This document shows positions 51,291 to 58,168 of a stretch of DNA of 64,000 nt, in pieces. A model generated the notes under the pieces. It saw nothing but the letters and a program-made list of their open reading frames with translations, was not told the origin of the DNA and searched no databases. The stretch is from the human T2T-CHM13v2.0 reference genome, Homo sapiens, in assembly GCF_009914755.1 (NCBI RefSeq), contig NC_060929.1. One strand, given 5' to 3'. The stretch's first letter is position 1. The number at the start of each line of letters is the position of its first letter. A program made the position numbers and the translations under genes.

Positions 51291-52599
51291 GAGAGAGAGA
51301 TGGAAGAGGCAGAGAGAGAAATAAAGAAGAAGAGTGGGAGGAGAAAGAGGAAGATTATTAAAGAGAGGGAAAGATGAACATGGCAGTTACTCTTACACAA
51401 GTGGGAGAAGAAATGTGGATATTAAAGAATGGAAGAGTAGTTTTCAACATATTTTACTTTCCTCTTTATATTGCACACTCTTTCATGTTTGAGCCAATAT
51501 AATATTCTCTCTTATGTCCCCTACCATAATAATGGATACATTTTTTATGTTAAATACTTCAGATTTAAGTGGGAAAAGGAAGATGTTAGAAAAAGCCTGA
51601 GTAGGTTGATGTCAAGATGGCTGAGTAGGAACAGCTCCAGTCTGCAGCTCCCAGCATGAGCGACGCAGAAGAAGGGTGATTTCTGCATTTCCAACTGAGG
51701 TACCGGGTTCATCTCACTGGGGCTTGTCAGACAGTGGGTGCAGCCCACGGAGCAGGGCGGGGCATCGCCTCACCTGGGAAGCGCAGGGGATCGGGGAATT
51801 CCCTTTCCTAGCAAAGGGAAGCCGTGACAGATGGTACCTGGAAAATTGGGACACTCCCACCCTAATACTGCGCTTTCCAACAGCCTTAGCAAAAGGCACA
51901 CCAGGAGATTATATCCTGCGCCTGACTAAGAGGGTCCCATGCCCACGGAGCCTCGCTCACTGCTAGAACAGCAGTCTGAGATCGAACTGCAAGGTGGCAG
52001 CAAGGCTGGGGGAGTGGCATCCACCATTGTTGAGGCTTGAGTAGGTAAAAAGAGCGGCCAGGAAGCTCGAACTGGGTGGAGCCCACCACAGCTCAAGGAG
52101 GCCTGCCTGCCTCTGTAGACTCCACCTATGGGGGCAGGGCATAGCTGAACAAAAGGCAGCAGAAACTTCTGCACACTTAAACGTCCCTGTCTGACAGCTC
52201 TGAAGAGAGTAGTGGTTCTCCCAGCACGGAGTTTCAGATCTGAGAATGGACAGAATGCCTCCTCAAGTGGGTCCCTGACCCCCGAGTAGCCTAACTGGGA
52301 GACACATCCCAGTAGGGGCTGACTGACACCTCATACAGCCAGGTGCCCCTCTGAGACAAAGCTTCCAGAAGAAGGATCAGACAGCAACATTTGCCATTAT
52401 GCAATATTTGCTGTTCTGCAGCCTCTGCTGGTGATAACCAGGCAAACGATCTGGAGTGGACCTCCAGCAAACTCCAACAGACCTGCAGCTGAGGGTCCTG
52501 ACTGTTAGAAGGAAAACTAACAAACAGAAAGGACATCCACACCAAAACCCCATCTGTACGTCACCATATCAAAGACCAAAGGTAGATAAAACCACAAAT

Positions 52600-53622
52600 A
52601 TGGGGAGAAACTAGAGCAGAAAATCTGAAAATTCTAAAAATCAGAGCACCTCTTCTCTTCCAAAGGAATGCAACTCCTTGCCAGCAACGGAACAAAGCTG
52701 GACAGAGAATGACTTTGGCAAGTTGAGAGAAGAAGGCTTCAGATGATCGGTAATAATAAACTTCTCCGAGCTAAAGGAGAATGTTCGAACCTATCGCAAA
52801 GAAGCTAAAAACCTTGAAAAAAGATGAGACGAATGGCTAACTAGAAAAACAGTGTAGAGAAGTCCTTACATGACCTGATGGAGCTGAAAACCATGGCACA
52901 AGAACTACGTGACTCATGCACAAGCTTCAGTAGCTGATTTTATCAAGTAGAAGAAAGGGTATCAGTGATTGAAGATCAAATGAATGAAATGAAGTGAGAA
53001 GTTTAGAGAAAAAAGGGTAAAAAGAAATGAACAAAGCCTCCAAGAAATATGGGTCTATGTGAAAAGACCAAATCTACATCTGATTGGTGTACCTGAAAGT
53101 GACGGGGAGAATGGAACCAAGCTGGAAAACACTCTGCAGGGTATTATTCAGGAGAACTTCCCCAACCTAGCAAGGCAGGCCAACATTCAAATTCAGGAAA
53201 TACAGAGAATGCCACAAAGATACTCCTCAAGAAGAGCATCTCCAAGACACATAATTGTCAGATTCACCAAGGTTGAAATGAAGGAAAAAATGTTAAGGGC
53301 AGCCAGAGAGAAAGGTCGGGTTACCCACAAAGGGAAGCCCATCAGACTAACAGCAGATCTCTTGGCAGAAACTCTATAAGCCAGAAGAGAGTGGGGGCCA
53401 ATATTCAACATTCTTAAAGAAAAGAATTTTCAACCCAGAATTTCATATCCAGCCAAACTAAGCTTCATAAGTGAAGGAGAAATAAAATCCTTTACAGACA
53501 AGCAAATGCTGAGAGATTTTGTCACCACCAGGCCTCCCTTACAAGAGCTCCTGAAGGAAGCACTCAACATGGAAAGGAGCAACTGGTACCACCAGCCACT
53601 GCAAAAACATGCCAAATTATAA
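52600..53622 (+). pseudogene. L1-C ORF1, disrupted
   Basis: Multiple stops, including TAA at 53377-53379 after LAETL. Confidence 0.95.
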
Positions 53623-53685
53623 AGACTATCAATGCTAGGAAGAAACTGCATCAACTAACGAGCAAAATAACCAGCTAACATCATA

Positions 53686-56850: not shown

Positions 56851-57061
56851 ACAATGAGAACACTTGGACACAGGGGAACATCACACACTGGGGCCTGTTG
56901 TGGGGTGGGGGGAGGGAGAAGGGATAGCATTAGGAGATATACCTAATGTAAATGATGAGTTAACGAGTGCAGCACACCAACATGGCACATGTATACATAT
57001 GTAAGAAACCTGCACGTTGTGCTCATGTACACTAGTACTTAAAGTATAATAATAATAAAAA

Positions 57062-57910
57062 TTTCTAGTCAACAGCATGCTGTTAGTACTTAAACTTTTC
57101 GAGAATCAACAGTTATATATTGGTTTTCGACTGTGCAGGGAATTGGTGCCCCTAACTGCCATGTCGTTCAAGGGTCAACTGTATATGAGTATGTGTTTTG
57201 AGCATGATCCAAAGTAGGCAAAATCCATTGGGAACAACCCATTGTAATGAAGTCACATGATGGAAATTTTATGCAGGTATTAAAATAATGAATATGAAGA
57301 CTAAGGGAAAAATGTACATAGTGTTAAATAGAGCAGGAGATAAAATTAGGAATAATTCAAATGCATATGCAGTTATTTTTAAGGTATGTGCACAAAAGGA
57401 CAAATAAAAAATTTAATATACTATTATTCTAGGAAGGTAGGGTTAATGGGTGATTTTCTTAATCTTTTTGCTTTTTTCTAAATGTTTAATGAAACTTGTA
57501 TAATAAATAGAATTTGTGAAAACAAAAAACTTGATTTAGAACTAATCAAGAATAAGGAGAACATAAATTATTTGTAGAATATCCTGATTAATGTCAACAT
57601 CATAGATTACAGAGTAATTGAGTTTAAAGTAGATATATTTAAAAAAATCAAATATATTTGTTTAATGTGTACAAGGGCCTTGTGGTAAATCAACTTGACC
57701 TAAGATACATTTCCTTCTATGTAGCAAATGAGCAATAATTTGGTAATTTTAAACATTTCAACAAGAAACGTATAATTTAGACATTTTTAAAAAAAGATTA
57801 AAATAGCCTTCCTACTCGCTCATGTATACAATTAAATTCCTTGGCAGTTTCTGTGGTATAATTCATAATGATTTTCATATATTATTAAATTTATAAAAAT
57901 ACAAAAAAAA
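57062..57910 (+). other. L1-mediated 3' transduction with its own poly(A) site
   Basis: Lies between the L1-C tail and the second TSD copy AGAAAAAGCCTGAGTA (57911-57926, identical to 51588-51603); ATTAAA at 57884-57889; A-run from 57903. Confidence 0.9.
57066..57181 (+). mobile_element. Tigger2/MER28-like terminal fragment inside the transduction
   Basis: GTGCCCCTAAC, GTTCAAGGGTCAACTG-TA terminal inverted repeat; no partner half in the window. Confidence 0.75.
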
Positions 57911-58168
57911 AGAAAAAGCCTGAGTAAACTGTGAAATATTACCTAATCACACCCTACAAAATATTAATGTCAAAATTGAATTACAGAAGTAAAACTTAAC
58001 AGAACTATAATGGGATGATTGATTCATAATCCTGAGATAAAGAAATGTTTCTTAAGTAAGATAAAACCACTAATCTGTTATGAAAATTGACATTTGACTA
58101 CATAAGGCTTTAACGCCCTGATATGAACGGTATAAACAAAGTTAAAAGTGATACAACAAAATTTATTT

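What the first reader, a model, noticed from the sequence alone, without database searches (positions are those of the whole stretch)
51588..57926. About 850-bp 3' transduction carried by an old L1PA5/6-like element
Seen in the sequence: the 16-mer AGAAAAAGCCTGAGTA directly precedes L1-C (51588-51603, after TT, an endonuclease-type TT/AGAAAA site). It does not follow the L1 tail at 57061. It recurs exactly at 57911-57926, after ATTAAA (57884-57889), a CA dinucleotide and an A-run from 57903. The intervening DNA begins with one end of a Tigger2-like element that has no other half upstream of L1-C. Established: L1 read-through of its weak poly(A) signal mobilises flanking DNA. Inference: 57062-57902 was copied from the flank of the source L1, which sat inside a Tigger2. 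It is a tag for the parent locus and any sibling insertions.
Basis: partly seen in the sequence, partly recalled or inferred. Interest (0 to 1): 0.75.

Follow-up and report, generated by a model that had tools for sequence, protein, structure and literature searches.

The report
L1 transduction from a vanished donor
An old jumping gene (L1) in a human intron carries an 845-base piece that matches a site on chromosome 8 where no parent L1 stands today, likely because the parent was never fixed; the copying mechanism is well known, so this is an ordinary case with a traceable origin.

Summary
An exact 16-bp duplication brackets a near full-length, dead L1 plus an 845-bp tag (57058-57902) and a short A-run. 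The tag has one paralogue in the genome, chr8:105,651,818-105,652,675 (791 of 841 aligned bases identical). No L1 stands at the chr8 breakpoint: the site is colinear with 8 other Tigger copies and reads TT|AAGA, an endonuclease-type site. Tag divergence (non-CpG K2P 0.054) matches L1-C's distance to its nearest copies (0.047-0.060), about 22-31 million years under assumed rates. Best reading: read-through 3' transduction from an active L1 allele at chr8 that was never fixed in our lineage. No siblings were found. L1-C also has a private deletion of about 640 bp. Donor-less transductions are described in print. Verdict: real, a new member of a known kind, modest interest. Other primates could not be examined.

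The parts
51588..51603 (+). 5' copy of the 16-bp target-site duplication, after TT (endonuclease-type TT|AGAA)
51604..57057 (+). L1-C: near full-length L1 (5'UTR, broken ORF1 from 52600, broken ORF2, 3'UTR, very short A-rich end); the 3' boundary is ambiguous between 57057 and 57061. Sense to CDC42SE2, in an intron by the hub's annotation
   Evidence: 91-93% identical to full-length copies
56714..56716 (+). Junction of a deletion of about 640 bp in the 3' part of ORF2, on a 3-base microhomology (ACT); private to this copy
   Evidence: 633-650 bases missing against 6 relatives; junction 24-mer has 1 match in the genome at up to 2 mismatches
57058..57902 (+). Transduced tag, 845 bp, 28% G+C, no ATG-started frame over 46 codons; source G000:C8:105651818-105652675 (+)
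57058..57181 (+). Right end of a Tigger2-like DNA transposon (TIR 57159-57181, then TA); the rest of the element lies at the chr8 source. Family name recalled
57884..57889 (+). ATTAAA poly(A) signal likely used by the read-through RNA; the templated sequence ends 13 bases later
57903..57910 (+). A-tail not templated at the source (a ninth A at 57911 is shared with the duplication)
57911..57926 (+). 3' copy of the target-site duplication

Best explanation
L1-C and an 845-bp piece that matches chr8:105.652 Mb lie inside one 16-bp target-site duplication, and they likely arrived together as one read-through RNA from a donor L1 that once sat at that chr8 site and was likely never fixed in our lineage. 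Steps: (1, inferred) a full-length L1 inserted at TT|AAGA inside a Tigger2-like element in an intron of a minus-strand LDL-receptor-A/CUB gene (LRP12 by recall), antisense to it. (2, inferred; established mechanism) its transcript ran past the weak L1 signal and six further AATAAA/ATTAAA hexamers and was cleaved 13 bases after the ATTAAA that has the most U-rich downstream stretch. (3, hallmarks shown) target-primed reverse transcription inserted the RNA at TT|AGAA in a CDC42SE2 intron on chr5. (4, inferred) the daughter became fixed while the L1-bearing chr8 allele was lost, leaving the empty allele in the human reference. (5, shown; timing inferred) the daughter lost about 640 bp of ORF2 during or after insertion and decayed. 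Date: about 22-31 million years under assumed neutral rates.
For: One duplication brackets both parts. Single paralogue of the tag, 791 of 841 aligned bases identical. The chr8 copy has both TIRs with TA flanks and no A-tail, so it is the source. The used hexamer has the highest T count downstream, 17 of 30, of the 10 hexamers scored; the others have 5-14. The chr8 breakpoint is colinear with 8 of 8 other Tigger copies (52 bases against 51-55 over the same columns), so no L1 or duplication remnant is there. No L1-C-like sequence adjoins the breakpoint in 39 kb held upstream. The breakpoint reads TT|AAGA; such sites occur at 0.5% of bases, 1.6-2.6% allowing 3-5 placements of the boundary. Ages agree: tag non-CpG K2P 0.054 (s.e. 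about 0.008); L1-C against 9 copies 0.047-0.060. Differences fall on both branches in the Tigger part: 9 columns source-derived (3 of them one insertion), 6 daughter-derived, 2 ambiguous. Donor-less sources are described: Tica 2016, PMC4862182, section 14. Precise excision is called extremely rare in PMC5402677 (passage).
Against: The donor is not seen; step 1 rests on one 6-base motif and on the L1-tag order. No other primate genome was available, so neither the empty chr5 site nor a donor-bearing chr8 allele was examined. The donor's tail at the junction is very short (A-rich end of about 11 bases, no pure A-run over 5), though relatives' tails are also short and decayed. No siblings carry the tag, so the donor has only one witness. 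A second-generation copy, made from a lost intermediate that already carried the tag, would look the same. The test for a continuous old repeat across the chr5 site gave nothing above shuffles.
Confidence: 0.82

Rival explanations
1. Same transduction, but the donor L1 was fixed at chr8 and later removed precisely by recombination between its own target-site duplications.
For: Would leave the same clean empty site.
Against: Described as extremely rare even for short Alu elements (PMC5402677 passage); a 6-kb element would need the removal to fix as well.
Confidence: 0.05
2. RNA-level chimera without a chr8 donor: reverse transcription began on a polyadenylated non-L1 RNA from the chr8 plus strand and switched to the 3' end of an L1 RNA, or the two RNAs were ligated.
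For: No L1 at the source; short L1 tail at the junction; 3 of 4 junction bases are shared (AAAA/AAGA). Law and Burns 2026 (PMC13174262, passages) report L1-mRNA chimeras whose source genes mostly lack an intronic L1.
Against: Those chimeras carry the host RNA 5' of the L1; here it is 3'. The tag is antisense to the host gene, whose exons are on the minus strand. The breakpoint falls on an endonuclease-type motif, which a switch does not need (1.6-2.6% by chance).
Confidence: 0.06
3. Second-generation copy: L1-C came from an intermediate L1 elsewhere that had already captured the chr8 tag and is now lost too.
For: Proxy and multigenerational transductions are described (PMC13009371 passage). 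It would give the same structure.
Against: No other copy of the tag in this genome; no second A-tract or foreign flank between tag and duplication; needs two lost elements.
Confidence: 0.05
4. Two separate events: the L1 inserted, and the chr8 DNA was captured later at its tail by break repair, or the tag inserted first.
For: Donor absent.
Against: One duplication brackets both; no second repeat over 9 bases between the flanking regions compared; the tag ends 13 bases after ATTAAA in an untemplated A-run; ages agree.
Confidence: 0.02

Closest known systems
Partnered L1 3' transduction with no donor at the source (Tica et al. 2016, PMC4862182, section 14 read; classes 1 and 2)
   Same: L1 + unique tag + A-tail inside one duplication; source locus found; no full-length donor upstream of the source. 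A 2.15-kb 5'-truncated L1 with its own duplication lies about 510 bp downstream of the source, which formally fits their class 2 (unrelated truncated L1 nearby).
   Different: Their cases are polymorphic and recent; this one is about 6% diverged and in the reference.
Reference-genome transduction catalogues (Hoyt et al., bioRxiv 10.1101/2021.07.12.451456, passages: 183 highest-confidence L1 3' events in CHM13; Szak 2003 and Pickeral 2000, not held, recalled)
   Same: Same genome, same signature, inter-chromosomal.
   Different: Their top class pairs offspring with parents; none exists here. Whether this locus is in their Table S13 could not be seen.
Polymorphic L1 transductions in 3,202 genomes (Halabian and Makalowski 2022, PMC9311842, passages)
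   Same: Poly(A) signal 10-40 bases before the cleavage point, downstream GU/U-rich element.
   Different: Their L1 tags have median 63, mean 206, maximum 997 bases; 845 is near the long end, and the donors there are L1HS.
L1-RNA chimeras (U6/L1, mRNA/L1; Law and Burns 2026, PMC13174262, abstract, passages and section 9)
   Same: Non-L1 sequence inside the L1's duplication; source often without an L1.
   Different: The non-L1 part is 5' there and 3' here, with its own poly(A) signal.

Membership tests
L1 3' transduction (partnered) | One target-site duplication brackets L1 and tag | tested here: met
L1 3' transduction (partnered) | Endonuclease-type target (TT|AAAA or one purine variant) | tested here: met
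   TT|AGAA
L1 3' transduction (partnered) | A-tail after the tag that is not templated at the source | tested here: met
L1 3' transduction (partnered) | Poly(A) signal shortly before the end of the tag | tested here: met
   ATTAAA 57884-57889, 13 bases before the end; U-rich downstream stretch at the source
L1 3' transduction (partnered) | Tag has a source locus elsewhere with unrelated flanks (not a segmental duplication) | tested here: met
   alignment confined to 57058-57902; chr5 flanks match the chr8 region only in short repeat-type hits of up to about 500 bases; chr8 sequence past the tag end has no paralogue
L1 3' transduction (partnered) | L1 and tag absent together from the orthologous site in an outgroup | not testable with these tools
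   no relatives held for this genome
Progenitor-verified transduction (donor present in the reference) | Full-length L1 directly upstream of the tag at the source | tested here: not met
   not filed here
L1PA5/L1PA6 subfamily | Diagnostic positions against subfamily reference sequences | not testable with these tools
   no repeat library; name is recalled
L1PA5/L1PA6 subfamily | Age of about 20-27 million years | tested here: inconclusive
   21-27 My point estimates for L1-C against relatives under assumed rates; L1PA6 boundary 26.8 My in PMC4083085 (passage); fits, does not separate PA5 from PA6
L1PA5/L1PA6 subfamily | Modern 5'UTR with the TATA site that arose within L1PA6 | tested here: inconclusive
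   a TATA-bearing 8-mer is in L1-C and 7 of 9 relatives; that it is the site meant in 10.1101/429563 (passages) is recalled
Tigger2-type DNA transposon | Terminal inverted repeats flanked by TA; many dispersed copies | tested here: met
   at the source; 2,297 candidates, 40 scored, best other copies 73-78% identical
Tigger2-type DNA transposon | Match to the named family model | not testable with these tools
   no repeat library; name recalled
Spliced L1 (SpIRE), for the internal deletion | Deleted part starts with GT and ends with AG | tested here: not met
   relatives read AAAG after the left break and GAAT before the right; ACT microhomology instead
Template-switch or ligation L1 chimera (U6/L1 type) | Host RNA lies 5' of the L1 | tested here: not met
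   tag is 3'; 5' end joins the duplication through 9 bases

The most novel reading that the evidence does not exclude
The tag is a fossil record of an extinct active L1 allele from about the ape-monkey split, and that donor still stands at the chr8 site in another catarrhine lineage, giving a deep lineage-sorting (or precise-loss) marker. The same fossil preserves the older state of the Tigger TIR and so dates a conversion between the chr8 element's two arms. A census of such donor-less old tags would measure directly what share of active L1 alleles never fixed.
Probability: 0.12. Interest if true: 0.5.

Novelty: new member of a known kind. Interest (0 to 1): 0.27.

Why it matters
As a single case, little: 3' transduction is textbook, the tag is non-coding, and both L1 frames are dead. 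Its value is as a dated witness. It names the place of an L1 that was active some 20-30 million years ago and is gone from the human reference, which nothing else in the genome records. Counting such cases would put a number on how often active full-length L1 alleles fail to fix. A possible local effect, untested: the L1 is sense to CDC42SE2 and adds several poly(A) hexamers in an intron, but the used signal lost its U-rich downstream element on moving (T count 4 of 30 against 17 of 30 at the source), so it is likely weak.

Tried and rejected
Siblings: searches with 57170-57902, 57600-57902, 57170-57480 and 57790-57902 each gave 2 of 2 candidates, self and chr8; the chr8 stretch running past the poly(A) site gave only itself and chr5; the Tigger-end query gave chr8 at 86% and other copies at 80% or less among 40 scored of 320. 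The search skips common words, so very short siblings could be missed. The L1 about 510 bp downstream at chr8 as donor: rejected; it is 3' of the tag, 5'-truncated, has its own duplication and is no closer to L1-C (93.0% and 88.1%) than to 9 other copies (90.4-93.1%). The deletion as a donor trait marking siblings: 1 match in the genome, itself. The deletion as a splice: no GT-AG. Continuity of an old L1 across the chr5 site as a stand-in for the empty allele: the immediate flanks scored no better than 30 shuffles. Coding potential of the tag: none over 46 codons. Locus in print: none of the 15 listed of 182 papers names CDC42SE2; none of the 10 listed of 16 names LRP12; 0 papers for intronic polyadenylation with CDC42SE2; 0 for LRP12 with CHM13 and a coordinate. 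Szak 2003, Pickeral 2000, Khan 2006, van de Lagemaat 2005 and the Science version of Hoyt were not held; preprint supplements (Hoyt Table S13) could not be seen and may list this locus. Arm symmetry within other single Tigger copies was not measured; cross-copy pairs were used instead.

Full report
Observation. The 16-mer is exact at 51588-51603 and 57911-57926, the only two matches in the window at up to 2 mismatches. Between the two flanking regions the next longest exact repeat is 9 bases, and the chance of an exact copy in the 2 kb behind the L1 is about 1e-6. The first copy follows TT and precedes an L1 5' end; the second follows ATTAAA (57884), 13 further bases and an A-run from 57903. 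L1-C aligns at 91-93% with full-length copies elsewhere; both frames carry stops and shifts.

Source. A search of the window's own genome with 57170-57902 gave 2 of 2 candidates: itself and G000:C8:105651934-105652675. The full alignment runs from 57058 to 57902 against C8:105,651,818-105,652,675: 791 of 841 aligned bases identical, 29 transitions, 21 transversions, 6 gaps, K2P 0.062. It stops exactly at the A-run. At chr8 the sequence goes on untailed into a U-rich stretch. Of 10 AATAAA/ATTAAA hexamers in the 1.4 kb after the breakpoint, the used one is the seventh and has the highest T count downstream, 17 of 30; this is a crude score, not a poly(A) predictor. Upstream, chr8 holds the rest of the DNA transposon: two TIRs with TA flanks about 1.3 kb apart and an Alu inside with its own duplication. 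The window has only the right end. So chr8 is the source and chr5 the copy. The source lies between the first exon and an LDL-receptor-A/CUB exon of a minus-strand gene; the name LRP12 is recalled, from no call. The tag is antisense to that gene.

The donor is missing. In 63 kb held around the source (39 kb upstream, 23 kb downstream) L1-C matches only a 5'-truncated L1 downstream of the tag and an old 376-base 3' end about 26 kb upstream. The downstream L1 has its own duplication and is no closer to L1-C than to 9 other copies. Across the breakpoint chr8 is colinear with 8 of 8 other copies of the transposon, so there is no L1 remnant or left-over duplication. The breakpoint reads TT|AAGA; sites of this type occur at 0.5% of bases in 23 kb of the region, or 1.6-2.6% if the boundary is allowed 3-5 placements. 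This is what an empty pre-insertion allele of a lost L1 looks like. The donor itself is inferred.

Age. From the 40 best of 8,572 candidates for the 5' end I fetched 12 and used 9; three were dropped as inverted or incomplete. L1-C differs from them by K2P 0.066-0.082, or 0.047-0.060 without CpG columns; they differ among themselves by 0.042-0.061. The tag's non-CpG distance is 0.054, s.e. about 0.008. The two clocks agree. With assumed rates of 1.0-1.25e-9 per site per year the point estimates are 21-31 My, with a range of 15-40. L1PA6 starts at about 26.8 My in Castro-Diaz 2014 (PMC4083085, passage), and most L1PA5 date to around the ape-monkey split in Law and Burns 2026 (PMC13174262, section 9). 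The label L1PA5/6 therefore fits but was not tested against a library.

Internal deletion. L1-C lacks 633-650 bases of late ORF2 relative to 6 relatives, joined on ACT at 56714-56716 with no GT-AG. The junction occurs once in the genome. Since L1 proteins act mostly on their own RNA (established knowledge), the donor likely had this part and the loss is the daughter's, at insertion or later.

Siblings. None: four tag queries and one query past the poly(A) site returned only chr5 and chr8, and the Tigger-end query found nothing between chr8 (86%) and ordinary copies (80% or less). Short or much decayed siblings could be missed.

Mechanism and rivals. Best: read-through of a donor L1 at chr8, cleavage at the strongest nearby signal, target-primed insertion on chr5, loss of the donor allele (0.82). 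Rivals: an RNA chimera without a donor (0.06), precise excision of a fixed donor (0.05; called extremely rare in PMC5402677, passage), a lost intermediate (0.05), two separate events (0.02). Three of these five readings are transductions, so 'transduction' as such stands at about 0.92. Against my reading: no outgroup could be examined, the donor has one witness, its tail is very short, and my stand-in test for the empty chr5 site failed to rise above shuffles.

What is known. Tica 2016 (PMC4862182; passages and section 14) found a full-length donor for 3 of 6 human calls and almost none in other primates, and class the rest as no L1 nearby or unrelated truncated L1 nearby. Hoyt et al. (bioRxiv 10.1101/2021.07.12.451456; passages) list 183 highest-confidence L1 3' events in this assembly; their table could not be seen and may hold this locus. 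Halabian 2022 (PMC9311842; passages) gives a median tag of 63 and a maximum of 997 bases. Law and Burns (abstract, passages, section 9, supplement list only) raise the same lost-allele explanation for a 5' chimera. Also seen as passages: PMC2768975, PMC6425141, PMC13009371, 10.1101/429563. Szak 2003, Pickeral 2000, Khan 2006 and van de Lagemaat 2005 were not held and are recalled. Four searches for this locus found no mention among the papers listed; that is weak, as most catalogues sit in supplements.

A side result. The two TIRs of the chr8 element are a perfect 28-base inverted repeat. Both carry a T at a position where 0 of 8 other left TIRs and 0 of 8 other right TIRs do, while the chr5 copy of the right arm keeps the common base. 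Left-right pairs from different copies differ at 2-10 of 23 positions, mean 5.5, with 0 of 64 perfect (pairs are not independent). This suggests conversion between the arms after the transduction, but rests on one site; a parallel mutation is possible.

Verdict. Real and correctly read; source located; donor absent. A new member of a known kind. Interest 0.27.

Noticed in passing
L002:168-195 and 1490-1517 (G000:C8, about 105,650,601 and 105,651,950); window 57159-57181: The two TIRs of the source Tigger2-like element are perfectly complementary over 28 bases and share a derived base absent from 16 other TIRs; the chr5 retro-copy keeps the common base. Possible conversion between arms 1.3 kb apart after the transduction; one site only.
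   Followed up: partly
window 56714-56716: Private deletion of about 640 bp in late ORF2 on a 3-base microhomology; not a splice; unique in the genome.
   Followed up: yes
L004:2175-4365 (G000:C8, about 105,653,180-105,655,360): Independent 5'-truncated L1 of 2.15 kb with a duplication of about 14 bases, about 510 bp downstream of the source poly(A) site, same strand and similar age; an automated pipeline could mistake it for the donor.
   Followed up: yes
window 39533-45654 and 14657-20545: Two more long L1s on the minus strand: one 91% identical to L1-C along its length, one with a different 5'UTR (81%). The RefSeq enhancer/silencer rows at 44795-45994 and 19370-20178 overlap their 5' ends; L1-C's 5' end has no such row (hub annotation).
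   Followed up: no
window 51604-51612: Nine bases between the duplication and the conserved L1 start differ from the purine-rich start of the 10 relatives shown; decayed start or a few untemplated bases.
   Followed up: no
L065:412-441, minus strand (G000:C8, about 105,716,420): GGC repeat in the 5'UTR of the host gene of the source locus, 64 kb from the source; by recall the LRP12 disease repeat, normal length here.
   Followed up: no
window 58200-58500: Weak match to L1 ORF2 slightly above shuffles (91-93 against a maximum of 84.5), likely a very old L1 fragment downstream of the insertion.
   Followed up: no
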